Assembly (NCBI GenBank): GCA_965267335.1
Contig: OZ253953.1
Span: 1,670,486 to 1,734,485 of the forward strand
Reading direction: 5' to 3'
DNA length: 64,000 nt
Origin: Cytophagales bacterium
GTDB lineage: Bacteria; Bacteroidota; Bacteroidia; Cytophagales; JAAEPT01
A program made the position numbers and the translations under genes. Positions within the stretch are counted from its first letter, which is position 1. The number at the start of each line of letters is the position of its first letter. Below the pieces are notes generated by a model, which saw nothing but the letters and a program-made list of their open reading frames with translations, had not been told where the DNA came from and ran no database searches. Of this stretch, positions 19,064 through 39,290 are shown piece by piece.

Positions 19064-19984
19064 TTATTCTATTATATTCTTTCTAATGTCCTTAACTGTT
19101 GCAGAAATGTTCTGAAAGTCTTCCTCACTATAACTGATAACTGTCTCACTATTGTCAACAACCATCATGATTCCATCCTGCTCAACAATTTCCGGCTCAC
19201 CTTCAATGACTTCGATCTTAACTGCATCATACGCTTCATTCAGTTTTTTCAGATCAGCAATAAAAGGAGCAATTTTATTGTCTTCTTTGTAGTAGTCAAG
19301 CAATTGCAATAACTGTTCCAACCCCGCTTTTTGCTCCCCAATCTTATCCTTGAGTTCAGCGTTTGGTTTATCATTATACACATTGCATGCCAAACTTAAT
19401 CCTTCAATCCATCCACCGGTTAAAAGGAGCACGCTCAACTGCTCCCGATTTTGGTTTTGCAAATGTAAATTTATTTTTTCAAAGTTCGAAGTAGTTATAA
19501 CTAACAGTGAGTCAAGGTTATTACTATTCTTTATTAGGTTGGTCAAGACTTCAGATGCAAAGAACTGATCAATACTAAGGTCCTTTGCAAGAGACCGCAC
19601 ATTAGACAGGTAAGCAAGCCCATCCTGGTTTTGATTATAAATGTTGGTATACGCGAGATCAGAACCGTAGATTCCTAAATTAAGGGCTTTGTCGTAGGTA
19701 TCCGTATAATTCAGTACGTTTTCGGAAGGGTTAAGATAACTGACATCATACTCACTCCCGATGCTCTTTATCAAGAATGACATTTCCAGAGGTGATGGGA
19801 TTGAGTTGAAAATTTGTGTGATTTCGGCTTTCTCCTCTTCAGTAAATTCTGTCTTTTGTGTTTCACTGATGGTCTTCAAAGAATCCTTGGTGGCTTCAAG
19901 GTCTTCTATGCTTGGTTTTTTTTCGCTTTCACCACAGCTCAACAATAAGCTGCAAGTCAGGGATGCCAGGATTAGTTTTTTCAT
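19064..19984 (-). CDS. Hypothetical lipoprotein (helical)
   Basis: Lipobox MKKLILASLTCSLLLSCG. Predicted largely alpha-helical from composition. Lies 44 nt downstream of the ABC exporter gene. Confidence 0.6.
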   Translation of the reverse strand: MKKLILASLTCSLLLSCGESEKKPSIEDLEATKDSLKTISETQKTEFTEEEKAEITQIFNSIPSPLEMSFLIKSIGSEYDVSYLNPSENVLNYTDTYDKALNLGIYGSDLAYTNIYNQNQDGLAYLSNVRSLAKDLSIDQFFASEVLTNLIKNSNNLDSLLVITTSNFEKINLHLQNQNREQLSVLLLTGGWIEGLSLACNVYNDKPNAELKDKIGEQKAGLEQLLQLLDYYKEDNKIAPFIADLKKLNEAYDAVKIEVIEGEPEIVEQDGIMMVVDNSETVISYSEEDFQNISATVKDIRKNIIE

Positions 19985-20028
19985 CGTACGAATAATAATT
20001 TATTAAAAATTATTTAGAATAGTAATGC

Positions 20029-23000
20029 TTAATGGTGTTCTTTTTTACCTCTGAACTTAATTTTGCCCGCTAACTCAAGAGATTTCCTGAAAATATCAAA
20101 GTACAGTGTAAAGTACAACAATAAGCTCATAAACCATATTACGGAAATATTGAAGTAAAAGGTGCTAAAATACTGTCCAAAAAGATGTTTTTGAGGGGCA
20201 TAGAAATGTGCGCGATAGTCCAGTGCTCCTGAAGGAGAGGGGGTTACGAATATCGGGTCGAGTCTCTGAATAATTCTGCCATCATGTTCCTCAATTCTTT
20301 TACTTGGTTTTAATAATGTTTGTCTGACAATTTCATCCAAACTATTATTGAAGAATTCTGATTTTTTCTTTCTGATGTCATAGCCATTCAGTTCGAGGGT
20401 TTCCATTCTGGTATTTATTTCCTGATCAAAATGATTAAATACATCATTATAAAAGGCTGACCGCTGATTTAAATATTCCTTGAGATCGGAGGCTAAATTT
20501 TGGTCGAATCCATCAACCGATACAGTATCACTAATCGGAGCAGTTTTGTTCTTGCTTCTTTCATTAAGGTAAAGGGTTTCATTTTTTATAAGTTTGAAAT
20601 TTTCCTCGAATACGGGTTTGATAGAATCAGGAAGCTCCGAGTAACTTTTTACACTATAATCCCTTAATAAGTTTTCACACTCCTTTATTTTTTTCTGGAC
20701 CCGAGGAATGTGATATCCTTTAAAGAAGTTGGCCTGGCTTTTATTGCTTTCCAGCTCATAGAAGTATGCGAAATACTCATTCTGTGTGTACATTTCAACA
20801 GAAATAGCCTCATATGCCCATCGTGAAGCCATCAAATCAGCTACAATTGGTGTGCTCTCTTTATTTGCTATATGCTCGTTGAGCTTATCAAAGCTAAATA
20901 ATGCTCCGCTTAATATCATTTGGGGAATCAAGAGCAGAGGAATGACTATGTAAACGGTAACTGCAGAGTTCAATGAAGCGGATATATTGAGGCCGAGGAT
21001 ATTAGCGAAACACGAAACACTAAATAAGGTCAGCCAGAAGCTGAATGTCATACCGTGGATTTCCAGTATCCAATTTCCTACTAAGACATAGGAAATGGTT
21101 TGTATAGCCGATAAAGTGAACAGCAGTCCAAATTTTGAAAACAAATAGCTGTTTTTGCTCAGGTTAAGAAATTTCTCTCTCTTAAGAATTTTCCGGTCTT
21201 TGATGATTTCTTCTGCGCTAACTGTCAGTCCCATAAACAAAGAAACCACGATGCTCATAAGTATATAAGCCGGAATATTTTCATTGTTCATGTATGTATA
21301 CTCGGTACCCTCATTGGTATTCTTGTATCTGATAATGAAGGCCAACAAGAGAGCGAGAAATGGGGCTTCAAGTAGGTTAATAACCAGGTATTGACTATTA
21401 CTTACCTTGGATTTGAGGTCTCTTAATGTATAAATCCACCACTGGATTATGGGGTTTGGTATTTTTAAATTTTTCGGAGGCGCTTCCTTTTCGTCAGGAA
21501 GGTGCTCAATATTAAAACTTTTATTGTAATGTTCAGCCCACTCAGGGGGAGTTACTTTTCGTTTTATGGTTTCCTGGCCATATTCATTTACTACCCGTTC
21601 TTCAATAATGTCAAACATCTGTTCAGGGTTGACATTCCCGCATTCGCTACACTGCCCTTTATCACTGTTGATTTGATTGGAAGCCTTCTTGAAGTATACG
21701 ATAGATTCGATAGGGTTGCCGTAGTAGATTGGATATCCTCCGGTGTCCATTATGAACATTTTATCGAACTTCTTGTAAATTTCTGAAGAGGGCTGGTGTA
21801 TGACAACAAAAATAAGTTTGCCCTTGAGTGATAACTCCTTAAGAAGGTCTATAACATTTTCGGAATCTCTTGATGACAAGCCGCTTGTAGGCTCATCCAC
21901 AAACATTACGGCAGGCTCTCTTATCAATTCTAAAGCAATATTAAGCCTTTTACGTTGTCCTCCACTAATTTTTTTGTTCAGTACGTTACCGACCTTGAGG
22001 TGTTTAATATGCTCAAGTCCCAGGCTGCTTAAGACGTTCCGGACCAATTGAATTAGTTCTTTTTCCGGTGTTCCCCGAAAACACATCTTTGCATTGTAAT
22101 ATAGATTTTCAAAGACAGTAAGATCTTCAATAAGAATATCATCCTGTGAAATGTAGCCTATTACCCCCTGGACCTTGTCTTTTTCCTCGTGGATATCGAT
22201 TCCATTGATAAGAACTTGTCCTTTTGAAGGCTTTTCAAGCCCTGCCAATGCATTTAAAAGAGTAGTTTTACCCGCCCCTGAGGCTCCCATAATCCCAATC
22301 AGCTTGCCTTGTTTTTCGGTAATATTAATATCACGTAGTCCAATGGCTCCATTAGGGAATTTAAATTCCAGGTTTTTAACATTAAAAGTGATGTTTGTCT
22401 GGACCAGGTCATGGTTGAACTGAGCAACAATATCACTATAGTAGAGTGGCACTCCTATCGGGGGCTTAACCGTACTTCCATTGGAAAAGAGTTGTACCCA
22501 TTGATTGCCTAAAGGGTGGTTATTTAGTAAAATTTCATCGGATCCTTTGTACTTGATGAAGTAAAGTTCAACACTTTTGACCTTCAGTATGAAGATGTGC
22601 CCATCCAGATTCTCTGATTGGATAAACAAGGACCTTTTATTGCCTGGATCCTTATGGGAAGAAATTAATATATCTTCAGAGTCCAAATCCTTGGTTTCTT
22701 CGCTGAGCACAAAGTTTTCCATGATCTGATACTCATTTTCTTCTATGTTAAATACAGTTGAAACTGTATTTATGATTTGCCTTCGCTGGGGGGTGAAGTT
22801 TTTATCCGAATTGACCAGCTCCAATAGTTCAATTAATACGATTACTTTTTGTTTTTGAGTAAGCGTTTTATTGATCTTTTTGCAGATAGAGAGCGTTCTT
22901 ACCGAGTCCTTTACTGAAGTAAGCTTGTTTCTGCTAGGGCGGTCTTTTCTTTCAGGACGGTCTGCTCTTCTTGGGCGATCAGGTCTTTCGGGCCTTTCTT

Positions 23001-23181
23001 TCTTTTTAGAGTCTTGAAGGAATTCTTCGTAAAGTTTAATGTACTCCTTTACAGATTGAGCATTGAGCCTTTGTTTGAAAAAGCTCGTAACATAATTTTT
23101 TTCTACCGCGGTAACGCCTTCATCTTGCTTTGTAATAATAGCAAAAAGTTGCGTCAGCGCCTTTAGAATTTCTTCACTCAT
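20029..23181 (-). CDS. ABCG-type (ABC2) exporter, fused ATPase plus permease, with ~260-aa N-terminal regulatory extension
   Basis: Walker A GASGAGKTTLLNALAG, signature ISGGQRKRLNIALEL, Walker B MFVDEPTSGLS, then about 6 TM helices and a long C-terminal extracytoplasmic/helical region. The N-terminus has a helical domain, a (D/E)RPxR repeat and a beta-rich FHA-like segment (degenerate). Confidence 0.9.
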   Translation of the reverse strand: MSEEILKALTQLFAIITKQDEGVTAVEKNYVTSFFKQRLNAQSVKEYIKLYEEFLQDSKKKERPERPDRPRRADRPERKDRPSRNKLTSVKDSVRTLSICKKINKTLTQKQKVIVLIELLELVNSDKNFTPQRRQIINTVSTVFNIEENEYQIMENFVLSEETKDLDSEDILISSHKDPGNKRSLFIQSENLDGHIFILKVKSVELYFIKYKGSDEILLNNHPLGNQWVQLFSNGSTVKPPIGVPLYYSDIVAQFNHDLVQTNITFNVKNLEFKFPNGAIGLRDINITEKQGKLIGIMGASGAGKTTLLNALAGLEKPSKGQVLINGIDIHEEKDKVQGVIGYISQDDILIEDLTVFENLYYNAKMCFRGTPEKELIQLVRNVLSSLGLEHIKHLKVGNVLNKKISGGQRKRLNIALELIREPAVMFVDEPTSGLSSRDSENVIDLLKELSLKGKLIFVVIHQPSSEIYKKFDKMFIMDTGGYPIYYGNPIESIVYFKKASNQINSDKGQCSECGNVNPEQMFDIIEERVVNEYGQETIKRKVTPPEWAEHYNKSFNIEHLPDEKEAPPKNLKIPNPIIQWWIYTLRDLKSKVSNSQYLVINLLEAPFLALLLAFIIRYKNTNEGTEYTYMNNENIPAYILMSIVVSLFMGLTVSAEEIIKDRKILKREKFLNLSKNSYLFSKFGLLFTLSAIQTISYVLVGNWILEIHGMTFSFWLTLFSVSCFANILGLNISASLNSAVTVYIVIPLLLIPQMILSGALFSFDKLNEHIANKESTPIVADLMASRWAYEAISVEMYTQNEYFAYFYELESNKSQANFFKGYHIPRVQKKIKECENLLRDYSVKSYSELPDSIKPVFEENFKLIKNETLYLNERSKNKTAPISDTVSVDGFDQNLASDLKEYLNQRSAFYNDVFNHFDQEINTRMETLELNGYDIRKKKSEFFNNSLDEIVRQTLLKPSKRIEEHDGRIIQRLDPIFVTPSPSGALDYRAHFYAPQKHLFGQYFSTFYFNISVIWFMSLLLYFTLYFDIFRKSLELAGKIKFRGKKEHH

Positions 23182-23217
23182 ACCCTTAGATTATACTACT
23201 ATGAGTACGAGTATTGT

Positions 23218-23580
23218 CTAGTAGGGTTTCAGCTCAAAGGGAACATCTATAAGTTCTCCGAACTCCTCACCAGCTTCTTCCATATCTTCGTCATCCTCCT
23301 GGAAATACCAGGTTATGGAAGAGTTGTCAATATCTTCGATAGTTGACATCATATCAAGTAGCATCTTCGATGAGGCGGTGTTAAAGTATTCTAGCTTTAC
23401 CACAAAGTTGGTTGATGGATTTGAGTCCTTAGAATACTCTGTTAACCAATCGATTATAGGTTCGTAAAATTCAGCGGCATCTTCAGGAAGAGATCTACCT
23501 GAAATTTCAAAAATGCCATTATCTTTATCCAGAATTACTCTTGGGGTATCTTCTGCTCCTTCTAAATTAATAACATTCAT
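23218..23580 (-). CDS. SiaC-like regulatory phosphoprotein (DUF1987 family)
   Basis: 120 aa. TPRVILDKDNGIFEISGRSLPEDAAEFYEPIIDWL...LEYFNTASSKMLLDMM matches my recollection of the DUF1987/SiaC pattern (G.S.PEN....Y..V..W......L.Y.NTSS.K). Thr68 sits in the FNTASS motif. Confidence 0.8.
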   Translation of the reverse strand: MNVINLEGAEDTPRVILDKDNGIFEISGRSLPEDAAEFYEPIIDWLTEYSKDSNPSTNFVVKLEYFNTASSKMLLDMMSTIEDIDNSSITWYFQEDDEDMEEAGEEFGELIDVPFELKPY

Positions 23581-23584
23581 ATGC

Positions 23585-24133
23585 TTAAACGTTTTCAGGT
23601 TTTACTCTCAAAATTTTAGTTTTTAGTGAAAAAAAGCTGTGCTTTTCGTCAACGGAAGTGAAATTATATTCTAGTTTGTTTCCGGATTTTCTGGCCATAT
23701 CTACAAATCCCAGTCCGGCACCACCTTTCTCAGAAAGGCTACCCTTCTTAATAATGTCTTTATAAAGTTGTTTGAGTCCGTCCTTATCGAGGCTGTTGAT
23801 TTCATCTAGTTTTCCTTTCAGAAAATCAACGTTTTCAGCCAGCATATAATTTCCGGTGCTGATCGCATAATAATCTTGTTCCCTGCCAATTAGAAAGATC
23901 GCTGCATTTTCATGAGTTTTTGTTTCATCTCCGTGCTTTACGATGTTTTGTAGACATTCGACCATTACGTTGAATACTTTTCTTTTAATGCTGGACTCCT
24001 CTCCAATAGAATCCAAATTTCTTTCGGCCATAGAAAGCACTGATTTAGTGATTTCTTGCGTGAACTCACCATCATAGGCCAGGATCAGGTTGGAATCCTT
24101 CATGGTGGTGTGTAGCAGGTAAATACGATCCAT
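23585..24133 (-). CDS. SiaB-like GHKL-fold Ser/Thr protein kinase (anti-sigma-factor-kinase-like)
   Basis: 182 aa. LILAYDGEFTQEIT...VMVECLQNIVKHG (N-box-like) and EKGGAGLGFVDMARKS (G-box) are typical of the small HATPase kinases paired with DUF1987 proteins. Confidence 0.75.
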   Translation of the reverse strand: MDRIYLLHTTMKDSNLILAYDGEFTQEITKSVLSMAERNLDSIGEESSIKRKVFNVMVECLQNIVKHGDETKTHENAAIFLIGREQDYYAISTGNYMLAENVDFLKGKLDEINSLDKDGLKQLYKDIIKKGSLSEKGGAGLGFVDMARKSGNKLEYNFTSVDEKHSFFSLKTKILRVKPENV

Positions 24134-24177
24134 ATGTAGTGTGATTACGTAAAATTCAGGGTAAAAAGTTAAAAATT

Positions 24178-27100
24178 TTAAAACTTAATGCCAATTAAAA
24201 GAACATCATCTGTTTGTTTATAATCAGCTTTCCATTCCTGGAAGCGGTCATCGACCATTTTTTGCATCTCTTCAAATTTATTGTAATTGTAAGTTGTGAC
24301 CATTTCCTTAATTCTTTTCGGCCCGAATTTTCTGTTTTCCGGTCCGCCAAATTGATCTGGGTATCCGTCAGAGAAGAAGTAGATAGCATCTCCTTCCTGG
24401 ATATCAATTCGGTGATTGGTAAATTCTGTTTTGTTGCTATAGGAGCTACCTCCTCCGATTGGGAATCTATTGCCCTTGAATTCATGGAGTTCACCATTTC
24501 TGACAAGATATAATGGACGGTGTGCTCCGGCATACTCAACTGTTTTATTTTTAAGGTTAATTCTACAGAAGCCCATATCCATTCCATCTTTAAGCTTGGA
24601 ATCTTCCTCATCTTGCCGCAGTGTTTTAGTGACTAGTTGATCCAGTGTGTCCAGCACTTTGCCCGGCTCGTGAATTCCGCGATCAACGACATCCTGCAAT
24701 AGGAAGTAAGCAATAATTGAGATCAAGGCTCCGGGAACACCATGACCCGTACAGTCAACTGCACTGATTAATATCTCATCACCAACTTTTTGGTACCAGG
24801 GGAAATCACCGCTTACAATATCCCGAGGGAGGAAGTAGATAAATGAATTTGGTAAATCTCTTTTGATAATTGAAGAATTAGGAAGGATGGCATCCTGAAT
24901 TCTTTCTGCATAATTTATGCTATCGTTGATTTTTTTGTTCTTCTCCCGAATTTCGTTTTCAATGGCTTTTTGTTCTGTAATATCATGTGAGACAACAAGC
25001 ACTGATTCGATTTCTTGTTCTTCGTCATATTCTGGAATGGCATTGACATACATTATTCGATTGTCTTCATCTGTCGGGAAGTCCATTTCGTCAGAGACTT
25101 TTGACTTCGTATCAAAAACTTTCGAAATAATATTTTTCCAGGCGGTAATGATTTGCTCATTGAGTTCAACATCATCCAAATTTTTATTTTGGAAATAGTT
25201 GGTATCAAGTCCGGTTAAAGCCTTGATCGTAGGGTTGATATAGAAGAAGTTTCCGTTTTGATTAATTCTCGTAATCAGGTCGAGAGAGTTCTCTGATAGG
25301 GCTTGCATTTGCCCTCTCTTCCTTTCTTCTTCTTCAGCTCTTCGTCTTTCAGTAATATCCTGTGAGTTAAGTACGATACCCTGGATGGCCGGGTCCTCGA
25401 GCATATTACGGCCGGTAGCTTCCAGCCAAATGTTGTCTCCCGACTTTTTATTGTAGGTGAACTGTAGTGTTACCTGTTCGGCTGGGTTGTTGAGTAAGGA
25501 CTTGAACATTTTTTTGATTCCCTTTTGTCCTTTTTCGTCCACAAATTTTAGATCAGAAATTCCGATGAGGTCATCTTGTTTATAGCCTAAGATATTCTCT
25601 ACTGAAGGACTGATGTAGCGAATGGTACCATCTTTTTCATAAATCGTGATCACCTCAGAGGCGTTTTCGAGGAGTACCTGCATTCTTTTTTGAGCGCGGT
25701 TAACTTCCTCAATTTGGTGTTCAAGTTGTTGGTTGGTTCTTTTGAGCTCCTCCTGTGTAGCCTCCATCTCAACTGCATTTTGGCGGAGTTCCTCTTGCTG
25801 AACTTGGAGTTCACTACTCATTCTTTGTGATTCTTCCAGCAGTTTCCTCGTACGCTCATTGACTTTCAAGTTAAATATCGTACGAGCGATAATCTCACTT
25901 ACTTCTTCAACAAACTGTACTTCGCCACTTGTAAATTTTTGAAGTCCGGAGAATTCTACCACTCCATAAACGGTTTCATTCGTAATAAGTGGCACAATGA
26001 GTAAACAAGATGGCTTCTGTTCTCCCAGGATGCCAGAGGTGATCTTTACATAATCATCAGGAACTTCGGTTCTTAAAATAATATCCTTTTCAATAGCAGC
26101 TTGGCCGATCAGACCTTCGGCAAATTTAAACTCAGCTTTTAAGTATTTTTTTCGTTTGTAGGCGTAGCTAGCCTTCATTTCAATGAATATGTTGTCAGGA
26201 TTTTCATCATTGACGCTATAAAATGCTCCCTGAACACCACTAATCCTGTTACAGATATAAGCTACAATTTCATCACCCAGAGATTCGAGGTTATCATTAT
26301 TACGTAAAATTTCACCGATCTCAGCCACTCCAGTAACAATCCAGTTTCTTAAGTTGTCCTGGGTGTCCGCTTTTTGAAGACTTTCACGCATTTCGACAAG
26401 TGCCTGACCGAGTGTATCTTTTTCGCTAATGGGTTCAAAGTCAGCTTCAAATTCTCCTTTTCCTATCTTATTAGCGAATTGAGCAGTTTTTCTTAGTGAA
26501 TCAACGAGGTTATTCACTGTTTCGGTCATTTGACCAATTTCATCTTTGGAGGTGACCTTAATTCTTTTTGGCAGCGCCCCTTTACTGACCAATTCAAGGA
26601 CTTTTTTAAGCCTCAGGAATGGAGATGTGAATAGCTTGGAAAACAAGGTGGCTATTATGAGTGTCAGTACAAATAGGATAATGGAAATAACGATAGTGAA
26701 GATGTCAAGGCTTCTGTGGGCACCATCAATTTCTTTTTGATTGATCTTAGCTATTGCTACTATTCCATAATTATCAAGGCTTTTCCAGTGGGCGTATACC
26801 TCATTGCCATTGTAGTCTGTATAGATACCATTGCCGTCCGGTTGTTTATCCAGATTGGAGGCAGGGTGATCGGGATGCTGAGATGTGAAAAATGGGGTTA
26901 ATCTCTTTTTTGCTAATCTAGGTTCGTTTAGAGTACAGATTCTTTTGTCGGAGGTAGAGATCCCGGTGTCCTGCAACTGTTCGAAACTTGATACATAAGT
27001 ATAAAGTAGCTCACTGGTTTCGCCAATCGAGACGCTGTCGGAATAGTTGTTTAGTAGTTCATTAAAATCGGTTCTTACAACGATTCGACCTTTTATCCTG

Positions 27101-27687
27101 TCTGATTTAGTCAGAATAGGCATCGAAGAGAATAGGTAATAGGTGCTATCATTAATTTTGATGACCGGGCTGGTATAGAACCTTTTCTTATCGTCAAGTA
27201 TAGTCTCCTTGTTATCAATAAAAAATCTGGCCAGATTTTCCTTATTCTTTTGGAAGAGAATTTCTTCTTCGTCATTAAGGATGAATACGTTAGATGCATC
27301 TGTAATTTCTGCATAAACCGGTAACATTCCTGACAGCCCAATATCAACGTATTGTCCCTCTAGAACAATCCCCTGTTCCAGTGCAGCATCAAATTCTTCT
27401 GGTGTTGGTTCAACATAAATTTTACCTCCCGTTTCCAGATAATTTATCAATTCAGGATCAGTGCGGATCTTTTTTAGCTCGACACCAATTTTTTTGAAAT
27501 GGGCGTTAAAAAATTTCTCGGCATATTCAATTGCAGTTTCAAGCTCCCTGTCATATGCTTTTTGTATTGTGGAGTTATTTCTTTTGTTTGAGATGATTAC
27601 CTCTCCGACAATGGCCACAATAATCAGCAATACTGCAAATAGCATGATTTTAGTGCCGATTTTCATATGTCGAAGAAATTTAATCAT
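24178..27687 (-). CDS. Membrane receptor-phosphatase: TM, Cache-like periplasmic domain, TM, HAMP, GAF, coiled coil, PAS, PAS, PP2C/SpoIIE phosphatase (SiaA-like)
   Basis: 1169 aa. Periplasmic YTDYNGNEVYAHWKSLDNYGIVAIAKINQKEI is Cache-like. HAMP is PFLRLKKVLELVSKGALP...DEIGQMTETVNNL. The GAF block is shared with two neighbours. The two PAS blocks are EVITIYEKDGTIRYISPSVENILGY and DLITRINQNGNFFYINPT. The C-terminal SGDFPWYQ...AVDCTGHGVPGALIS...DDVLLIGIKF is PP2C/SpoIIE. An alternative start is ATG 27666 (MKIGTKIM). Confidence 0.85.
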   Translation of the reverse strand: MIKFLRHMKIGTKIMLFAVLLIIVAIVGEVIISNKRNNSTIQKAYDRELETAIEYAEKFFNAHFKKIGVELKKIRTDPELINYLETGGKIYVEPTPEEFDAALEQGIVLEGQYVDIGLSGMLPVYAEITDASNVFILNDEEEILFQKNKENLARFFIDNKETILDDKKRFYTSPVIKINDSTYYLFSSMPILTKSDRIKGRIVVRTDFNELLNNYSDSVSIGETSELLYTYVSSFEQLQDTGISTSDKRICTLNEPRLAKKRLTPFFTSQHPDHPASNLDKQPDGNGIYTDYNGNEVYAHWKSLDNYGIVAIAKINQKEIDGAHRSLDIFTIVISIILFVLTLIIATLFSKLFTSPFLRLKKVLELVSKGALPKRIKVTSKDEIGQMTETVNNLVDSLRKTAQFANKIGKGEFEADFEPISEKDTLGQALVEMRESLQKADTQDNLRNWIVTGVAEIGEILRNNDNLESLGDEIVAYICNRISGVQGAFYSVNDENPDNIFIEMKASYAYKRKKYLKAEFKFAEGLIGQAAIEKDIILRTEVPDDYVKITSGILGEQKPSCLLIVPLITNETVYGVVEFSGLQKFTSGEVQFVEEVSEIIARTIFNLKVNERTRKLLEESQRMSSELQVQQEELRQNAVEMEATQEELKRTNQQLEHQIEEVNRAQKRMQVLLENASEVITIYEKDGTIRYISPSVENILGYKQDDLIGISDLKFVDEKGQKGIKKMFKSLLNNPAEQVTLQFTYNKKSGDNIWLEATGRNMLEDPAIQGIVLNSQDITERRRAEEEERKRGQMQALSENSLDLITRINQNGNFFYINPTIKALTGLDTNYFQNKNLDDVELNEQIITAWKNIISKVFDTKSKVSDEMDFPTDEDNRIMYVNAIPEYDEEQEIESVLVVSHDITEQKAIENEIREKNKKINDSINYAERIQDAILPNSSIIKRDLPNSFIYFLPRDIVSGDFPWYQKVGDEILISAVDCTGHGVPGALISIIAYFLLQDVVDRGIHEPGKVLDTLDQLVTKTLRQDEEDSKLKDGMDMGFCRINLKNKTVEYAGAHRPLYLVRNGELHEFKGNRFPIGGGSSYSNKTEFTNHRIDIQEGDAIYFFSDGYPDQFGGPENRKFGPKRIKEMVTTYNYNKFEEMQKMVDDRFQEWKADYKQTDDVLLIGIKF

Positions 27688-28474
27688 GCTGACCTCCTTT
27701 CTCTTTGTCTGCCTTACGAACTTTATCTAACTCTGCTGAGATGATCTTATTGAGTTCTTCAAGCGCAGCTACTATTGTGGGGTTAATTTCATTAAACGTA
27801 GCGAGTTCAAGGACTGCGATCACTTTTTTGTTGTGCACCAAGGGGAAAGCCAGCAAAAATTTAGGTTTTCCCTCACCAAGGCCTGAGATCACCGTATGTT
27901 GTTCGGTTGGTATTTCATTCAACAGTATTGCTTTTTTTGATTTGGCAGCTTGTCCCACAACTCCTTCTCCCAGTTCAAAACCAGTGTTTTTATCTTCTGT
28001 GATATGAAAGGCATAACCAGCTCTGAAAACATATATTTTGTTTTCTTCGGAGTATAAAGCGCCCTTTACGAGGTTTATTTTTTTTGAAAGTAAGCTAAGT
28101 AAGGCTTCTCCTGCACTAGTTACAGTGGTTTTATTAGCGAATGATTTTTTTATCTCAGTTTCGGTCAATGAAAATTTATCAGTTATTTCTGTTTCCTCTG
28201 TACGTTCAGCTTCATCAGCGTCTTGTCCAACGGTTTCATTGGTCTTCTTCTTTTTGCTAGTTTGAGTAGTTACTGATCTTAGTGAGAGTTGAACAATTGT
28301 CATTGTAGTTCCTATCGCTACGGTGCCTCCAATCCAAATTAGCGCCTTAATGATTGAATCCTGAGAGCCCGGAAATTTGTCATAGACATCGAGAAGATAT
28401 AGGGTAGCAGGAACTATTGTCACTAAAAAAGTGCAAAACAAAATTGTCAATAATAACCTGTTACTAATTTTCAT
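27680..28474 (-). CDS. Membrane-anchored GAF-domain protein
   Basis: 264 aa with two N-terminal TM helices, a Lys/Glu/Thr-rich linker, then GAF (GALYSEE...GEGVVGQAAKSKKAILLNEIP...LLAFPLVHNKKVIAVLELATF). It has start/stop overlaps with both neighbours. Confidence 0.75.
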   Translation of the reverse strand: MKISNRLLLTILFCTFLVTIVPATLYLLDVYDKFPGSQDSIIKALIWIGGTVAIGTTMTIVQLSLRSVTTQTSKKKKTNETVGQDADEAERTEETEITDKFSLTETEIKKSFANKTTVTSAGEALLSLLSKKINLVKGALYSEENKIYVFRAGYAFHITEDKNTGFELGEGVVGQAAKSKKAILLNEIPTEQHTVISGLGEGKPKFLLAFPLVHNKKVIAVLELATFNEINPTIVAALEELNKIISAELDKVRKADKEKGGQHD

Positions 28475-29064
28475 TTAGTGCTGGGCTTCTTTTTATCAAG
28501 TTTTTTTAAAAAATCTATAATTTGGTCTACGGTTAATACGTGATCGACATCACAGAGATTCATGGCTGCTTTTGGCATTGTATCAATAACACAAGTTTTT
28601 GGGTCTTGTACAATGGCAAGTCCGCCCCTTTCCTTAAGTTTTTCCATTCCTACGGCACCATCTTTATTGGCCCCGGAAAGCAATATACCGATTAATTTAT
28701 TTTTATATACATATGAGGCAGAGTCAAAGGCAACATCAATAGAAGGTCTGGAGTTATTAATCATCTCTTCGGTAGATAATGAAATGGTATTACCTAGTTC
28801 AATACACATATGATAGTTGGCGGGGGCCAAATATATGGTGCGCTTTCTTATCACTTGCTTGTCATATGGTTCAACGATTTGGAGCTTAGTTTTGATGGAA
28901 AGTGCTTCAAGAAAACCATGCCGAATGTGCTTGAGCCTATGCATTGCCATTATTATAGGCAGTTCATAATCTTCAGGTAGTTTGTTCAGTATACGTGTAA
29001 TTACTGGAAAGCTCCCCGCTGAACCTCCGATGACAATTGCTTTATATTCTCCGTCAATTTTCAA
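28471..29064 (-). CDS. CheB-type protein-glutamate methylesterase, catalytic domain only (no receiver domain)
   Basis: 197 aa. IVIGGSAGSFPVITRILNKLPEDYELPIIMAMHR, then later SRPSIDVAFDS and GILLSGANKDGAVGM, follow the CheB methylesterase Ser/His/Asp layout. The protein starts directly at the catalytic domain. Confidence 0.85.
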   Translation of the reverse strand: MKIDGEYKAIVIGGSAGSFPVITRILNKLPEDYELPIIMAMHRLKHIRHGFLEALSIKTKLQIVEPYDKQVIRKRTIYLAPANYHMCIELGNTISLSTEEMINNSRPSIDVAFDSASYVYKNKLIGILLSGANKDGAVGMEKLKERGGLAIVQDPKTCVIDTMPKAAMNLCDVDHVLTVDQIIDFLKKLDKKKPSTK

Positions 29065-29071
29065 AGTATAG

Positions 29072-29896
29072 CTAGTCTCTTAGTTTTTTATACACTTTTT
29101 CTTCTCCATTGACGAGTAGAAACTTGTTAGATATTTCGCACCAAATGAGTGACTCTTTAGACCCAATACATAAATAGGAGTACTTGAACATACTCTCATG
29201 CAATGTCTTGAGGACTTGGTTTTGAAGCGACTGATTAAAGTAGATCATCACATTCCTGCAAAGGATGAGATCAAATTTGGAAAAGGGTTCTCCGTTAACA
29301 AGGTTGTGTTCACGGAAAGTAACATTCTCTATAAGCGTTGGATCAAAAATGGCATAATCTCCATCAATATTGTAATAATTACTTAACTCAGCAATACCAT
29401 TAAACCGGATATAATTCTTATTGTTTATATCCATATTTTTCATTTTGTACCTACCAGATTTAGCGGAGTTAATGATGTTTTGGTCTATATCTGTGGCAGT
29501 AATAATCGCTTTGTCAAGAATTTCCAGTTCTTTTAGTAGAATGGCCATGGAAAAGACCTCTTCACCGGATGAGCACCCTGCATGCCATATTCTGATTTTA
29601 TCGTGATTTTGAAGCAGGTTCGGGAATATATTATCTCGTAGAGCTTTCCAGAATGATGGGTCTCTGAACATTTCTGTAACGTTGACAGTCACTTCTGAAA
29701 GGAATAGTTTGAAATAATCTTTTTCGATTCCCAACTTATGAATTAAGCTGTCAACAGATTCGATTCTATGTAAATCCAGAATCCGTACAATTCTTCTTTT
29801 GAACGAAGAAAGGGCATACTCAGAGAAGTCATGGTTGAAATTGTCTCTCAGATAAGCAGTTAGTTTCCTCAGTTCAGATATCTCAATTTCTTTCAT
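29072..29896 (-). CDS. CheR-type protein-glutamate O-methyltransferase
   Basis: 274 aa. N-terminal helical CheR_N region, TEMFRDPSFWKAL, and the SAM site IRIWHAGCSSGEEVFSMAILL with DLILCRNVMIYF. Confidence 0.9.
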   Translation of the reverse strand: MKEIEISELRKLTAYLRDNFNHDFSEYALSSFKRRIVRILDLHRIESVDSLIHKLGIEKDYFKLFLSEVTVNVTEMFRDPSFWKALRDNIFPNLLQNHDKIRIWHAGCSSGEEVFSMAILLKELEILDKAIITATDIDQNIINSAKSGRYKMKNMDINNKNYIRFNGIAELSNYYNIDGDYAIFDPTLIENVTFREHNLVNGEPFSKFDLILCRNVMIYFNQSLQNQVLKTLHESMFKYSYLCIGSKESLIWCEISNKFLLVNGEEKVYKKLRD

Positions 29897-29916
29897 TCGT
29901 GTATTCTATGTGTTGG

Positions 29917-31797
29917 TCAGTTTTTGTCTGAACTCAACTTATTGATTTTCATGTCTTTTATCTTGATGGTATTTTCAAGTTCCTCAATGGTTCGTTGTTG
30001 TTCCTGAAGTTTTTTCTCTAATTGAGTAGTACTTGATTTTGGTAGTTTTTTAAGCTGTGTTTTGTAATCATTAATCCGCGCTTCAAGTTTAGACAACTTG
30101 GTCTCATATTGAAGTTTGGTTGCTCGAAGTTCACGTTCCTGGTTTTCGTGTGTTACTTGCATTTCTTCAATGTTTTGGCGCATACTTTCCTCCTGACTAA
30201 TTAACTTTTCGGTGAGCTCTTGCGAATTTTTTAGCAAGCTTTGGGTTTTTCTGCTCATTTCCACAGTGGCAAGGGAAGCTGCAATGGATGAACTCAACTT
30301 CTCGACAAAGGAAATCTGATAGCCTTTAAATTCTCTGAAGCTTGCCAGCTCAATTACACCATGAATTTCATCGTTGTCTATTAACGGAACAATAAGTAAA
30401 GAGGTTGGGCCGGCATCACCTAATCCAGATTTGATTACCATATGACTTTCAGGGAGGTCTTTTACATAAATAGTCTCTTTTTCTTGCCACACCTGTCCGG
30501 TCAAACCTTCTCCATACTCAAGTCTCTTACTAATGAATTTTTGCCTGTCGAATGCAAAACTGGCGGCTAATTCCAAATGAATATCTTCCTCGTCATTACT
30601 GTTTATTATAAATAGCCCACCTTGATTGGCATCCAGGTACTTGACGAGCTCCGAAATAAGGATATTGGTTAGTTTGTCTAAATTGTCGGAATTGCGTTGA
30701 ATGAGTTCCGCAAAGTGCGCAAGTCCTTCAATTTCCCAGTTTCTTTCTTTCTCAATGCGATCCACTTCTATCATTTTATCGCGCATCTCAACAAGTGCTT
30801 TAGCCAATTCATTATTTTGCCCGCTCTCAGATTTGTCGATCTGCAGATCTGTTTCCAGGTTGTCGTTTGTGACATTTTTCACGAATTGGGTTGCACTATT
30901 TATATAACTGTTAAACTGATCCAGGCAGTAACCGATGTTGTGGTAATGCTCAAATGAAGTTTGGTAATTCAAGATGCTTTGCTCTCCCTGGAGGAGCTCT
31001 TTAGAATGATTCGAAAGGATAGAAATGGGTTGGATGAAGGTTTTTCTTATGAATGCGACTCCCAGTATTACAAGGAGTACGGCTAAAACTATATCCAGCG
31101 CTACAAGTATATAAATGATCACCAGTCTGTCACTGATCTTGTCCAGTGTGTTTTCATAAATTTCATCAATAGTGGTAACTACGAATTCCGACTCTAATTC
31201 ATTGTAATTAATAAGTTCTGCGAAGAGGGGATTTAAAATCTTTTTGGTCCGTTGCGTGGCATAGAGCCGGATGACTTGTCCGGTTTCCGGGTCGATGCCT
31301 GCAGAGTCGGTCTGCTGCGTTTCATAATAAATGCTGTCTGTATAGGGCTCTTCTTCGAAAAAAAGTCGAGAGTTGTTTTTGATGTTCAACCAATGTTCGG
31401 CCAAATAATAATAGAGGTCTTCTTCGTTGGCCTCATTTAGCAGTGCATTGACTTCCTGGTCTTTTGTTTTAGTGTTTAGTTGCTCTACAATTGATTGTAA
31501 GTCATGTCTATGTAAACTGAAAATATCTTCAAAGTGAATCCTGAGAGTTTTTAGCTTTTTTCTTATTGAAGTGCGAAATTCTACCTTGGATACCGGAGGT
31601 TTTTTTGTCTCTTGATTAAATTCATGGAGGACCTGTTTTGTTTCAAGTAGCTTGTAAGACAGTGTGTTGAGGCCGTTTTTCTGCCATAAAGCGAGTGCCA
31701 GAATCAGGTTAAAGAGTACAAATAGAGTACAGAATGCGAAGAAAAACAGGTTGACCCTTCCCTTCAATGACCTCCAATTTGTCTTCTTATCCATCAA
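29917..31797 (-). CDS. Chemoreceptor-like membrane sensor: TM, ~185-aa extracytoplasmic domain, TM, degenerate HAMP, GAF, long coiled coil; no enzymatic output domain
   Basis: 626 aa. The cytoplasmic module RNWEIEGLAHFAELIQRN...ANQGGLFII...GEGLTGQVWQEKETIYVKDLP...LLIVPLIDNDEIHGVIELASF...SQEESMRQNIEEMQVTHENQ is paralogous to those in 24178..27687 and 31943..33583. Confidence 0.8.
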   Translation of the reverse strand: MMDKKTNWRSLKGRVNLFFFAFCTLFVLFNLILALALWQKNGLNTLSYKLLETKQVLHEFNQETKKPPVSKVEFRTSIRKKLKTLRIHFEDIFSLHRHDLQSIVEQLNTKTKDQEVNALLNEANEEDLYYYLAEHWLNIKNNSRLFFEEEPYTDSIYYETQQTDSAGIDPETGQVIRLYATQRTKKILNPLFAELINYNELESEFVVTTIDEIYENTLDKISDRLVIIYILVALDIVLAVLLVILGVAFIRKTFIQPISILSNHSKELLQGEQSILNYQTSFEHYHNIGYCLDQFNSYINSATQFVKNVTNDNLETDLQIDKSESGQNNELAKALVEMRDKMIEVDRIEKERNWEIEGLAHFAELIQRNSDNLDKLTNILISELVKYLDANQGGLFIINSNDEEDIHLELAASFAFDRQKFISKRLEYGEGLTGQVWQEKETIYVKDLPESHMVIKSGLGDAGPTSLLIVPLIDNDEIHGVIELASFREFKGYQISFVEKLSSSIAASLATVEMSRKTQSLLKNSQELTEKLISQEESMRQNIEEMQVTHENQERELRATKLQYETKLSKLEARINDYKTQLKKLPKSSTTQLEKKLQEQQRTIEELENTIKIKDMKINKLSSDKN

Positions 31798-31942
31798 TGA
31801 AAGATATACTTAAATGGAAAAAAATCCAACAGTAGGACACCAATTGCTAATATTGGTCACTATGGTTCTATATAACCCGACTTAGCTCCTCTATTGGGAT
31901 ATATTTCCTATATTTCAGTAAGAAAACTATTGAGGAGTATTT

Positions 31943-33583
31943 ATGCGGTTTAATCTGACTATTGGAAGGCGCCTGGCTTATGGATTTGGTTTTATCATAG
32001 TGTCTATTGTTGCCTACAGTATCTTTACCTATTTCAGACTCAACGAGAACAGAAACCTGAATCAAAAGAATTCTGAGGTTTACATTCCTTCTATCATTCA
32101 GCTTAAGGACCTACAGAAACACGTGACCAGTATGAATACTGTGATGACTTCTTGGCTGGATCATAACCTGCGACAATATGAAGCCGATAATATATATTCC
32201 GACCTTGAAGAGTTGCACCGAATTTGTAATGAGCGATTACGTCCCAGACTTGATGTACTAACCAAAGAATGGGATGAAGTAAGCGATAGCTTGTACAAGC
32301 AAGTATCTTCTACTATTGATTCTATGGTTATATGGCAAAAGAAAGTAATGTTAAAGTATGCCTCAAGACCTGATGATGATATGGAAATGAAAGCCGAATT
32401 AAACCTCATCAGGAATGACTACGAAAGCAGCGTTGGAGCTACCGGTGAACGTATGGCAAGGGTTGAAAGCATAAATGAAGAAGGTGGTATCGGGACAATA
32501 ATTGGTAATTTGACCCAGACATCACGAAAATTAAGTAATAACCTAAATGATTCGGCAGTACTTCTACAGATGCTGGTTGGTATTTTGGGAGGCGTACTGT
32601 TGGTGGTTGGTTTTTTGATCGCCCTTTTTACTTATCGTTCTATTGTGCGCCCGATCAATGATTTAAAAAGCATTCTACTTTCCATGGGTAAAGGGGTTCT
32701 TCCAGAGAATGAAATCCAGGAAAGAAATGATGAGATTGGGGAAATGTCAGCGGCTCTTAACAGCCTCATCAGAGGATTGAAAGACACCTCAAATTTTTCT
32801 AAAAAAATAGGGGAGGGTGAGTTTAATTCGGAATATAAGCCATTAAGTAAGGACGATATTTTAGGTAATTCGCTTCTGGTAATGCGGGATAACCTTTCAA
32901 AAGTAGCTGAAGAGGATAAGAAAAGAAGTTGGAGTACCGAGGGCTTGGCTAGGTTTGGTGAAATTTTAAGAAGAAATAATGATGACCTTAAGAGTCTGAC
33001 AGAAGATTTAATCTTTGAATTAGTTAAGTACCTAAATGCCAATCAGGGAGCAGTTTTTGTATTAAATGAGGATGAAGACGGGCGATTTATGACAATTGCT
33101 TCGTGTTATGCCTGGGACAGACACAAATATCTTGAACAGAGGGTAGAATTGGGAGATGGTTTGGTAGGACAGGCCTGGCAGGAAAAAAGCACCTTCTACA
33201 TTACGGATGTCCCCCAAGATTATATAAATATAACTTCAGGTCTGGGGAAGGCCACTCCTACATCTATTCTCATAGTGCCTTTGATTATGAATGAAGAGAT
33301 TTATGGGATAATTGAGCTGGCTTCTTTTCATGAAATCGAACCTCATCAAATTGAGTTTGTTGAAAAACTTGCAGAAAATACCGCTGCCACGATTAGCACA
33401 GTAAAAGTGAATGAACAGACCAAACTGCTATTGGAACAAACTCAGGAAGCCTCAGAACAATTGAGAGCACAGGAGGAAGAGCTAAGGCAGAATCAAGAGG
33501 AAATGATGGCTACACAAGAGGAGATGCAGCGAAATCTTGATGAGGCCCATGAGGAAATTGCCAGGTTGAAGAAAAAGAAATAG
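31943..33583 (+). CDS. Chemoreceptor-like membrane sensor: TM, four-helix-bundle-type sensor, TM, HAMP, GAF, short coiled coil; no enzymatic output domain
   Basis: 546 aa. The N-terminus MRFNLTIGRRLAYGFGFIIVSIVAYSIF and following helical domain resemble 4HB-type MCP sensors. HAMP is RPINDLKSILLSMGKGVLP...DEIGEMSAALNSL. GAF follows, then AQEEELRQNQEEMMATQEEMQRNL. Confidence 0.8.
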   Translation: MRFNLTIGRRLAYGFGFIIVSIVAYSIFTYFRLNENRNLNQKNSEVYIPSIIQLKDLQKHVTSMNTVMTSWLDHNLRQYEADNIYSDLEELHRICNERLRPRLDVLTKEWDEVSDSLYKQVSSTIDSMVIWQKKVMLKYASRPDDDMEMKAELNLIRNDYESSVGATGERMARVESINEEGGIGTIIGNLTQTSRKLSNNLNDSAVLLQMLVGILGGVLLVVGFLIALFTYRSIVRPINDLKSILLSMGKGVLPENEIQERNDEIGEMSAALNSLIRGLKDTSNFSKKIGEGEFNSEYKPLSKDDILGNSLLVMRDNLSKVAEEDKKRSWSTEGLARFGEILRRNNDDLKSLTEDLIFELVKYLNANQGAVFVLNEDEDGRFMTIASCYAWDRHKYLEQRVELGDGLVGQAWQEKSTFYITDVPQDYINITSGLGKATPTSILIVPLIMNEEIYGIIELASFHEIEPHQIEFVEKLAENTAATISTVKVNEQTKLLLEQTQEASEQLRAQEEELRQNQEEMMATQEEMQRNLDEAHEEIARLKKKK

Positions 33584-34601: not shown

Positions 34602-34619
34602 GTTTCAATTTTGTTGTTC

Positions 34620-36350: not shown

Positions 36351-36377
36351 TTATGCTTTATTAAGTCTGATATCTTT

Positions 36378-38336: not shown

Positions 38337-38366
38337 TTAAATCTGATTCTGTATTCCTCTATTGGT

Positions 38367-39272: not shown

Positions 39273-39290
39273 TGTTAATTTTTTGTTCGA

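What the first reader, a model, noticed from the sequence alone, without database searches (positions are those of the whole stretch)
24178..33583. Three receptors with different sensor domains share one HAMP-GAF-coiled-coil cytoplasmic module; only one has an enzymatic output
The proteins at 24178-27687, 29917-31797 and 31943-33583 have unrelated extracytoplasmic regions: Cache-like, an unassigned ~185 aa, and four-helix-bundle-like. All three then carry the same collinear cytoplasmic cassette. It consists of a post-HAMP linker (F.KKIG.GEF....P.S..D.LG.AL.EMR..L), R(N/S)W..EGLA.F.EILR.N.D.L..L, the GAF core (ANQG..F......GEGL.GQ.WQEK......VP......SGLG...P.S.L.VPLI.N.E..G.IELASF...) and a coiled coil. 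Two of the three end right after the coiled coil, so they have no output of their own; in this respect they resemble MCPs. The third continues into PAS-PAS-PP2C. This suggests several sensors feed into a single phosphatase through mixed oligomers of the shared module.
Basis: partly seen in the sequence, partly recalled or inferred. Interest (0 to 1): 0.7.

Follow-up and report, generated by a model that had tools for sequence, protein, structure and literature searches.

The report
Methylation-tuned phosphatase receptor operon
Three membrane sensors do share one internal signalling cassette, and they sit in a widely conserved, uncharacterised Cytophagales operon that joins chemotaxis-type methylation enzymes (CheR, CheB) to a phosphatase/kinase switch, so they probably act as methyl-accepting receptors that work without the usual chemotaxis kinase.

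Summary
The three proteins share a collinear HAMP-linker-GAF-helix module, 30-41% identical over 344-413 aa (BLAST E 1e-48 to 1e-78).

CheR, a REC-less CheB and a fourth GAF paralog (TM+GAF, 264 aa) lie between the receptors. SiaB kinase, SiaC phosphoprotein (Thr68 kept), a TerB-ABCG transporter and a lipoprotein follow the phosphatase receptor.

This order, CheR-CheB-TM/GAF-PP2C receptor-SiaB-SiaC-ABC, is fully collinear in 49 of 55 Cytophagales loci with enough flank.

The most conserved part of the shared module is the post-GAF helix. It carries Glu-Glu pairs at exact 7-residue spacing with an EE-x-x-A-T core, which is half of the MCP methylation consensus. That motif occurs in 71 of 91 receptors and in none of 2859 other ORFs.

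Best reading: a CheA/CheW-free pathway whose receptors are methylated by CheR/CheB and whose output is the SiaB/SiaC partner switch. Methylation is inferred, not shown.

The closest precedent is B. cereus RsbK/RsbM. The mixed-oligomer idea remains untested.

The parts
24178..27687 (-). PP2C receptor (1169-aa ORF; the database version P0244 starts 14 codons later, 1155 aa). Architecture: TM, dCache-like sensor, TM, HAMP, linker helix, GAF, 89-aa helix, PAS, PAS, SiaA-like PP2C.
   Evidence: Pfam. AF2 model, pLDDT 79. Foldseek top hit is SiaA PP2C 6K4E, E 5e-20, TM 0.90, 32% id. Orthologs with 47-77% identity are all unnamed 'PAS domain S-box protein'.
25738..25800 (-). Candidate methyl-accepting stretch of the PP2C receptor, aa 630-650 QQEELRQNAVEMEATQEELKR. 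Heptad pairs are E632/E633, V639/E640 and E646/E647.
   Evidence: In 118 distinct ortholog helices the pairs at helix positions 32/33 and 39/40 are E at 0.92-0.98, with A36 0.87 and T37 0.96. Conservation profile.
29917..31797 (-). R626: TM, unassigned periplasmic domain of about 185 aa, TM, degenerate HAMP, GAF, 117-aa coiled coil. No enzymatic domain. First gene of the operon. Candidate sites at aa 535-555 (nt 30133-30195); only E544/E545 is an intact pair.
   Evidence: A receptor in this position is present in 20 of 70 related loci.
31943..33583 (+). R546: four-helix-bundle sensor, HAMP, GAF, 79-aa helix. No enzymatic domain. Transcribed divergently from the operon. Candidate sites E512/E513, E519/E520 and E526/E527 (nt 33470-33532).
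   Evidence: Pfam. AF2 model, pLDDT 81.5. Homolog family. The same divergent layout is seen in L083.
29072..29896 (-). CheR protein-glutamate O-methyltransferase (274 aa) with N-terminal helical domain and SAM domain.
   Evidence: Pfam CheR 4.5e-43 and CheR_N. Best PDB match is B. subtilis CheR 5FTW, E 3e-28. Orthologs are 61-67% identical across Cytophagales.
28471..29064 (-). CheB methylesterase, catalytic domain only (197 aa), with no receiver domain.
   Evidence: Pfam CheB_methylest 6e-50. Ser/His/Asp positions align with T. maritima CheB 3SFT.
27680..28474 (-). TM+GAF protein (264 aa), a fourth paralog of the GAF part. It has no HAMP, no helix and no EE pairs. It overlaps CheB by 4 nt and the PP2C ORF by 8 nt.
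   Evidence: Present in 52 of 55 loci.
23585..24133 (-). SiaB-family protein kinase (DUF6272).
   Evidence: Pfam 2e-43. NCBIfam SiaB_fam_kinase 173 bits against a cutoff of 85. Present in 55 of 55 loci.
23218..23580 (-). SiaC-family phosphoprotein (120 aa) with Thr68 in YFNT68AS.
   Evidence: Pfam SiaC 2e-38. Alignment to P. aeruginosa SiaC 6KKO places Thr68 on the phosphosite in YLNT68SS (site from PMC7647112). Present in 55 of 55 loci.
20029..23181 (-). TerB-domain + ABC ATPase + ABC-2 permease (ABCG/White-type, 1050 aa). Candidate output of the pathway.
   Evidence: Pfam and NCBIfam. Follows SiaC in 51 of 55 loci.
19064..19984 (-). Conserved lipoprotein (306 aa; signal peptide with Cys17; no family). 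Last gene of the cluster.
   Evidence: Present in 50 of 55 loci.

Best explanation
Window 19064-31797(-) is one operon, with 31943-33583(+) transcribed divergently from it. Together they encode a chemosensory-like pathway that has no CheA, CheW or MCP signalling domain.

Step 1. A dCache receptor carries its own SiaA-type PP2C phosphatase. This phosphatase and the SiaB kinase set the phosphorylation of SiaC Thr68, forming a partner switch. (Inferred from homology.)

Step 2. The long coiled-coil helix after the GAF domain is shared by the phosphatase receptor and by the output-less receptors R626 and R546. It is the substrate of the co-encoded CheR and REC-less CheB. Methylation of its exposed Glu-Glu pairs resets receptor activity, giving adaptation. 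(Inferred from gene linkage, motif and precedent; not shown.)

Step 3. The output-less receptors act like MCPs. They add sensory inputs to the same pathway, either by physical association with the phosphatase receptor or the TM-GAF protein, or by competing for CheR/CheB. (Speculative.)

Step 4. Unphosphorylated or phosphorylated SiaC controls the conserved TerB-ABCG transporter and lipoprotein. (Speculative; rests on gene order alone.)
For: Shown:
- Shared module at E 1e-48 to 1e-78.
- Operon gaps of -8 to 44 nt.
- CheR, CheB, SiaB and SiaC assignments.
- PP2C domain closest to SiaA 6K4E.
- Cluster CheR-CheB-TM/GAF-PP2C receptor-SiaB-SiaC-ABC fully collinear in 49 of 55 loci from many Cytophagales genera.

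Supporting the methylation step:
- The post-GAF helix is the best-conserved stretch of the output-less family, almost invariant as QEEEMRQNMEELQATQEEM.
- EE pairs sit 7 residues apart at b/c positions of the heptad.
- EE..A[ST].EE occurs in 71 of 91 receptors and in 0 of 2859 other ORFs.
- CheB lacks a receiver domain, as expected where there is no CheA.
- The three loci with a short PP2C protein lacking the module have also lost CheB and the TM-GAF gene.
- A CHASE3-GAF-'EEL' helix histidine kinase in L077 has its own adjacent CheR.
- Precedent: B. cereus RsbM, a CheR homolog, methylates the CHASE3-HAMP-GAF kinase RsbK (PMC12848376).
Against: - No methylation was observed; the step rests on motif and linkage.
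- The match to the full MCP consensus ([ASTG]2-x2-[EQ]2-x2-[ASTG]2; recalled, not checked here) is only half, limited to the EE-x-x-A-T side.
- There is no E/Q alternation at the sites (Q at most 0.03), so the deamidation signature typical of MCPs is absent.
- The helix starts with an N-E-R-T motif like generic signalling helices, so some of its conservation may be mechanical.
- R626 keeps only one intact EE pair, and some close R546 relatives have degenerate helices.
- I could not check whether these genomes carry canonical MCPs, CheA or CheW elsewhere.
- L074, L076 and L077 keep CheR without a helix-bearing receptor in the cluster.
- Nothing links SiaC to the transporter except gene order.
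Confidence: 0.6

Rival explanations
1. The output-less receptors form mixed dimers or higher oligomers with the phosphatase receptor through the shared HAMP-GAF-coiled-coil module, and so pass their signals to the single PP2C. Methylation is not needed for this.
For: The module is shared, and the a/d core residues of the helix are nearly the same in both classes. An output-less receptor is co-operonic in 20 of 70 loci, and the R546 type is syntenic in L083. The conserved TM-GAF protein shows that GAF-only partners belong to the system.
Against: It was not tested. It does not explain the invariant presence of CheR/CheB. Many family members are orphans far from the cluster. The family is very large, with 7179 clusters at E<=1e-30. 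Transmembrane receptors of this build usually form homodimers (general knowledge).
Confidence: 0.3
2. The helix is only a mechanical signalling helix linking GAF to PAS or to a free end. CheR and CheB act on some other substrate, such as canonical MCPs elsewhere in the genome or another cluster protein.
For: The helix begins with an S-helix-like NERT motif and is a regular coiled coil. It matches only half of the MCP consensus and shows no E/Q signature. CheR can methylate non-receptor proteins such as PhoP (PMC8546571).
Against: CheR/CheB are translationally packed with the GAF proteins. The TM-GAF protein has no conserved EE pair. The EE motif is restricted to the receptors. The RsbK/RsbM precedent also argues against it.
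Confidence: 0.2
3. The three receptors are merely old paralogs. R546 and R626 signal to partners unrelated to the phosphatase, for example by regulating the SiaB kinase, through PAS tails in relatives, or through unknown proteins. The shared module reflects common descent only.
For: Paralogs are only 30-41% identical, so the split is ancient. Most family members carry only PAS repeats or nothing after the helix, and many are orphans.
Against: Placement next to CheR in the same operon recurs across genera. The helix is held almost invariant across the family, which suggests a common conserved partner.
Confidence: 0.25

Closest known systems
Bacillus cereus RsbK-RsbM-RsbY sigma-B module
   Same: A membrane sensor with HAMP and GAF domains is methylated by a CheR-type methyltransferase encoded next to it. 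The signal ends in a PP2C phosphatase driving a partner switch (PMC12848376). A direct look-alike, a CHASE3-GAF-helix hybrid kinase with its own CheR, sits in locus L077.
   Different: - Here the PP2C is fused to the sensor, so there is no histidine kinase or phosphorelay.
- A CheB esterase is present, so modification is reversible.
- The switch proteins are SiaB/SiaC rather than RsbW/RsbV.
- There are extra output-less receptors and a TM-GAF protein.
- The apparent output is a transporter, not a sigma factor.
Pseudomonas aeruginosa SiaABCD
   Same: A membrane HAMP-PP2C phosphatase (SiaA), the SiaB kinase and SiaC phosphorylated on Thr68 form a partner switch (PMC7647112). The PP2C fold is closest to SiaA. 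SiaB family membership is met, and SiaC Thr68 is conserved.
   Different: - No SiaD diguanylate cyclase in the cluster.
- GAF, helix and two PAS domains are inserted between HAMP and PP2C.
- CheR/CheB, TM-GAF, ABC transporter and lipoprotein are added.
- NCBIfam equivalog cutoffs for SiaA and SiaC are not reached.
Methyl-accepting chemotaxis proteins with CheR/CheB adaptation (including non-motility systems such as Wsp)
   Same: Modular periplasmic sensors (4HB, dCache, PilJ/TarH-like) plus HAMP. Many receptors have no enzymatic domain. They carry heptad-spaced Glu-Glu pairs with EE-x-x-A-S/T, and CheR and CheB are co-encoded.
   Different: - No MCPsignal domain or hairpin tip.
- A GAF domain and a two-stranded coiled coil replace the four-helix bundle.
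- No CheA, CheW or CheY in the cluster.
- CheB has no receiver domain.

Membership tests
Methyl-accepting chemotaxis protein (MCP) | MCPsignal cytoplasmic domain (PF00015) with the conserved hairpin tip that binds CheA/CheW | tested here: not met
   No PF00015 hit for any of the receptors (PP2C receptor also at E<=10). No tblastn match to a Tsr core in the window or the 80 loci.
Methyl-accepting chemotaxis protein (MCP) | Methylatable Glu/Gln pairs at 7-residue spacing within the consensus [ASTG][ASTG]xx[EQ][EQ]xx[ASTG][ASTG] | tested here: inconclusive
   EE pairs occur at exact heptad spacing with an EE-x-x-A-T core. The upstream small residues and E/Q alternation are missing. Actual methylation is not testable with these tools.
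Methyl-accepting chemotaxis protein (MCP) | Genomic association with CheR and CheB | tested here: met
   CheR and CheB are in the same operon. The link is conserved: CheB is present in 53 of 55 loci.
SiaABC(D) partner switch | SiaB-family kinase | tested here: met
   NCBIfam NF038262 173 bits against a cutoff of 85, and Pfam DUF6272 2e-43.
SiaABC(D) partner switch | SiaC phosphoprotein with the Thr68 phosphosite | tested here: met
   Pfam SiaC 131 bits against a cutoff of 24.5. Thr68 aligns with P. aeruginosa Thr68. The NCBIfam equivalog score of 80 is below its cutoff of 150.
SiaABC(D) partner switch | SiaA: TM-HAMP-PP2C phosphatase | tested here: inconclusive
   The PP2C domain is closest to SiaA 6K4E (TM 0.90, 32% id). 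NF038263 scores 210 against a cutoff of 700 and matches the PP2C part only, and the architecture is much longer.
SiaABC(D) partner switch | SiaD diguanylate cyclase as the target of SiaC | tested here: not met
   No GGDEF protein in the window operon or among the conserved cluster genes.
RsbK/RsbM-type methylated sensor | Sensor with HAMP+GAF encoded next to a CheR-type methyltransferase | tested here: met
   The feature as described for RsbK is taken from PMC12848376.
RsbK/RsbM-type methylated sensor | Hybrid histidine kinase output (HisKA-HATPase-REC) phosphorylating a REC-PP2C | tested here: not met
   No HisKA, HATPase or REC in any of the three receptors. The PP2C is fused directly to the receptor.
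RsbK/RsbM-type methylated sensor | Glutamate methylation of the sensor by the CheR homolog | not testable with these tools
   Needs mass spectrometry or an in vitro methylation assay.

The most novel reading that the evidence does not exclude
Cytophagales and related gliding Bacteroidota have a complete chemosensory pathway built without CheA, CheW or CheY. Thousands of 'orphan' sensor-HAMP-GAF-helix proteins would be its methyl-accepting receptors, CheR and REC-less CheB its adaptation enzymes, and a receptor-fused PP2C with SiaB/SiaC its transducer. With true temporal adaptation, this could be the unknown taxis pathway of gliding bacteria, or a gradient-sensing control of an export system.
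Probability: 0.15. Interest if true: 0.9.

Novelty: new variant of a known kind. Interest (0 to 1): 0.68.

Why it matters
CheR/CheB adaptation is almost always discussed as part of CheA-based chemosensory arrays. Here the same enzymes are locked, across a whole bacterial order, to a Ser/Thr phosphatase-kinase partner switch and to a large family of unannotated receptors (7179 clusters at E<=1e-30).

If the helix is methylated, three things follow:
- Sensory adaptation by glutamate methylation would be a portable module that can be attached to non-kinase outputs.
- Thousands of 'GAF domain-containing proteins' in Bacteroidota would get a function.
- It would offer a concrete entry point to how gliding Bacteroidota, which mostly lack classical chemotaxis genes (general knowledge; not checked here), process environmental gradients.

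It also predicts an unusual target, a TerB-ABCG transporter, for a SiaC-type switch protein.

Tried and rejected
- Window organism: three exact-sequence look-ups and a cluster look-up gave no record or name.
- MCPsignal, CheW or CheA in the cluster: none found.
- E/Q (deamidation) alternation at the candidate sites: absent.
- The TM-GAF protein as the methylation target: no conserved EE pairs.
- An FHA (phospho-Thr binding) domain in the N-terminal 275 aa of the ABC transporter, which would have linked it to phospho-SiaC: only TerB found, even at E<=10.
- Sigma-70 promoter and terminator scan: counts equal to shuffled controls, so uninformative. The promoter consensus is also probably wrong for Bacteroidota.
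- Foldseek of the R546 model: generic GAF folds only, with no clue to a ligand.
- Literature: ten searches found no paper on a CheR/CheB + PP2C/SiaB/SiaC cluster. Several were spoiled by 'cher' matching 'cherry' and similar words. The original RsbM/RsbK papers are not held.
- Hetero-oligomer prediction was not possible with the tools offered.
Full report
**1. The observation**

The three ORFs exist as described.
- Pfam assigns HAMP, GAF, two PAS domains and SpoIIE/PP2C to 24178-27687(-).
- It assigns GAF only to 29917-31797(-).
- It assigns HAMP and GAF, plus a sub-threshold 4HB_MCP_1 hit, to 31943-33583(+).

BLASTP gives 29.7-40.7% identity over 344-413 residues, with E-values from 2.5e-48 to 1e-78. 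This is a shared collinear module, not generic GAF similarity.

AF2 models give the following layouts.
- R546 (pLDDT 81.5): a four-helix periplasmic bundle, HAMP, a linker helix, GAF and one continuous 79-residue C-terminal helix.
- The phosphatase receptor (pLDDT 79): a long helix plus two alpha/beta modules, which is dCache-like. Orthologs carry dCache_1 hits, and Foldseek matches McpB/McpC models. This is followed by HAMP, linker helix, GAF, an 89-residue helix, two PAS domains and PP2C.

**2.

Between and after the receptors lie these genes:
- CheR (29072-29896) and a CheB catalytic domain without a receiver domain (28471-29064).
- A 264-aa protein with two TM segments and a GAF domain paralogous to the module (27680-28474).
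- A SiaB-family kinase (23585-24133) and a SiaC phosphoprotein (23218-23580).
- A TerB + ABC + ABC-2 transporter (20029-23181).
- A 306-aa lipoprotein with no family (19064-19984).

Gene spacing runs from -8 to +44 nt, which fits one operon from R626 to the lipoprotein. The key residues are in place:
- CheB keeps the Ser/His/Asp positions.
- CheR is a full CheR with its N-terminal domain.
- SiaC Thr68 aligns with the experimentally phosphorylated Thr68 of P. aeruginosa SiaC (PMC7647112).
- The PP2C domain is structurally closest to SiaA (6K4E, E 5e-20, TM 0.90, 32% identity).

**3. Conservation elsewhere**

A scan of one genome per species with a CheR alignment gave at least 588 confirmed relatives. 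The best 80 loci come from Cyclobacteriaceae, Marivirga, Fulvivirga, Microscilla, Bernardetia, Flexithrix, Flammeovirga, Algivirga, Chryseolinea, Ohtaekwangia and others.

Of the 55 loci with at least 9.8 kb downstream of CheR:

| Component | Loci (of 55) |
|---|---|
| CheB | 53 |
| TM-GAF protein | 52 |
| Long PP2C receptor | 52 |
| SiaB | 55 |
| SiaC | 55 |
| ABC transporter | 51 |
| Lipoprotein | 50 |
| All in the same order | 49 |

- An output-less HAMP-GAF-helix receptor sits directly upstream of CheR in 20 of 70 loci.
- The divergent R546-type gene is syntenic in a second genome (L083).
- Other family members are orphans, for example in Marivirga harenae.
- Three loci have a short PP2C protein without the module. 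They have also lost CheB and the TM-GAF gene.

**4. The helix**

In the output-less family the post-GAF helix is the most conserved stretch. It reads almost invariantly as ...LLEES.EMTEQMR(S/A)QEEEMRQNMEELQATQEEM... across proteins that are otherwise about 42% identical.

Position counts:
- Output-less family (91 distinct helices): Glu-Glu pairs at helix positions 25/26, 32/33 and 39/40.
- Phosphatase receptors (118 helices): pairs at 32/33 and 39/40, with E at 0.92-0.98, Ala36 at 0.87 and Thr37 at 0.96.
- The a/d core falls on positions 10, 13, 17, 20, 24, 27, 31, 34, 38, 41 and onwards, so the pairs sit on exposed b/c positions.

From my own knowledge, E. coli Tar reads EE-TAASM-EQ-LTATV at its heptad-spaced sites. 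The present EE-LQATQ-EE has the same spacing and the same Ala-Ser/Thr two residues after the pair.

The strict pattern EE..A[ST].EE occurs in 71 of 91 receptors and in none of 2859 other ORFs (594,293 aa) of the loci. In the window only the three receptors carry the helix motif.

Window sites:
- R546: E512/513, E519/520 and E526/527.
- Phosphatase receptor: E632/633, V639/E640 and E646/647.
- R626: only E544/545 is an intact pair.

Points against the methylation reading:
- Only half of the full MCP consensus is met.
- Gln almost never replaces Glu at these sites.
- The helix starts with an N-E-R-T motif like generic signalling helices.
- Some close R546 relatives have degenerate helices.

**5. 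Precedent and literature**

No paper in the searchable library describes CheR/CheB joined to a PP2C/SiaB/SiaC cluster.

The closest precedent is B. cereus. RsbK, a CHASE3-HAMP-GAF hybrid kinase, is methylated by the adjacent CheR homolog RsbM, and it controls the PP2C RsbY and the RsbV/RsbW partner switch (PMC12848376; the original papers are not held).

Locus L077 contains just such a pair. It has a CHASE3-GAF-'EEL' helix-HisKA-HATPase-3xREC protein followed 6 nt later by its own CheR. CheR has also been reported to methylate consecutive acidic residues in PhoP (PMC8546571 abstract).

**6. Family size**

A profile of the R546 family finds the following numbers of 50%-identity clusters:

| E-value threshold | Clusters |
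|---|---|
| <=1e-3 | 59,121 |
| <=1e-10 | 17,118 |
| <=1e-30 | 7,179 |

Eight long members were checked. Seven are Cache or other sensor-HAMP-GAF-(PAS)n proteins with no enzymatic domain, and one carries an HATPase domain. Receptors upstream of CheR have varied sensors, including PilJ, TarH and sCache_3_3, though most are unassigned. All named homologs are labelled only 'GAF domain-containing protein' or 'PAS domain S-box protein'.

**7. Interpretation**

Shown:
- The shared module.
- The operon.
- Its conservation across Cytophagales.
- The SiaA/SiaB/SiaC-type parts.

Inferred with moderate confidence: CheR and CheB act on the shared helix. This would make the three proteins methyl-accepting receptors in a CheA-free pathway whose transducer is the phosphatase/kinase pair acting on SiaC.

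Speculative:
- How the output-less receptors couple to the phosphatase.
- That SiaC regulates the TerB-ABCG transporter and lipoprotein.

I could not test whether these genomes lack canonical MCP, CheA and CheW genes.

**8. Verdict**

The feature is a new variant of known kinds (RsbK/RsbM-type methylated sensors, SiaABC partner switches, MCP adaptation) and is widely conserved and uncharacterised. Interest 0.68.

Noticed in passing
window 27680-28474 (-): TM+GAF-only protein, a fourth paralog of the module's GAF. It is translationally coupled to CheB and the PP2C receptor and conserved in 52 of 55 loci. Its role is unknown; it could be a GAF-GAF partner or adaptor.
   Followed up: partly
window 19064-19984 (-): 306-aa lipoprotein (lipobox Cys17) with no Pfam or NCBIfam family. 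It follows the ABC transporter in 50 of 55 related loci, so it is an eighth member of the cluster.
   Followed up: partly
window 20029-23181 (-): ABCG/White-type fused ATPase-permease with an N-terminal TerB domain, a Pro/Arg-rich repeat (ERPERPDRPRRADRPERKDRPSR) and an unassigned domain of about 100 aa before the ATPase. No FHA domain was detected.
   Followed up: partly
L077 1351-5630 (-): A CHASE3-GAF-'EELxxxNEEL' coiled coil-HisKA-HATPase-3xREC hybrid kinase is followed 6 nt later by its own CheR (42% identical to the window's). This is an RsbK/RsbM-like pair in a Flammeovirgaceae MAG, next to a reduced CheR-PP2C-SiaB-SiaC-ABC cluster.
   Followed up: partly
L075 3376-18599 (+): Two tandem copies of CheR-CheB-TM/GAF-PP2C receptor-SiaB-SiaC plus an extra receptor, on a contig labelled Bifidobacteriaceae. 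The content looks like Bacteroidota, so the contig is probably mis-binned.
   Followed up: no
L074, L076, L077 (10001-16800): Reduced variants of the cluster: CheR, then a short PP2C (276-533 aa, without HAMP-GAF-helix), SiaB, SiaC, ABC and lipoprotein, with no CheB and no TM-GAF. It is unexplained why CheR is kept there.
   Followed up: partly
window 27645-27687 (-): Start-codon ambiguity of the PP2C receptor. The longest ORF (1169 aa) overlaps the TM-GAF gene by 8 nt, while the database protein P0244 starts 14 codons later (1155 aa).
   Followed up: no
window 33642-40421 (-): A block of secreted and outer-membrane genes (319-aa lipoprotein-like protein, two large beta-barrel-like proteins, GH16 glycoside hydrolase, 376-aa unknown) lies between R546 and the TPR-PD40-OmpA gene. 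In L083 those two genes are adjacent, so this block looks like an insertion.
   Followed up: no
one search hits P0467, P0494, P0495, P0506: Family members of 1900-2400 aa show 6-9 separate matches to the module profile, suggesting giant proteins with repeated HAMP/GAF/PAS units.
   Followed up: no
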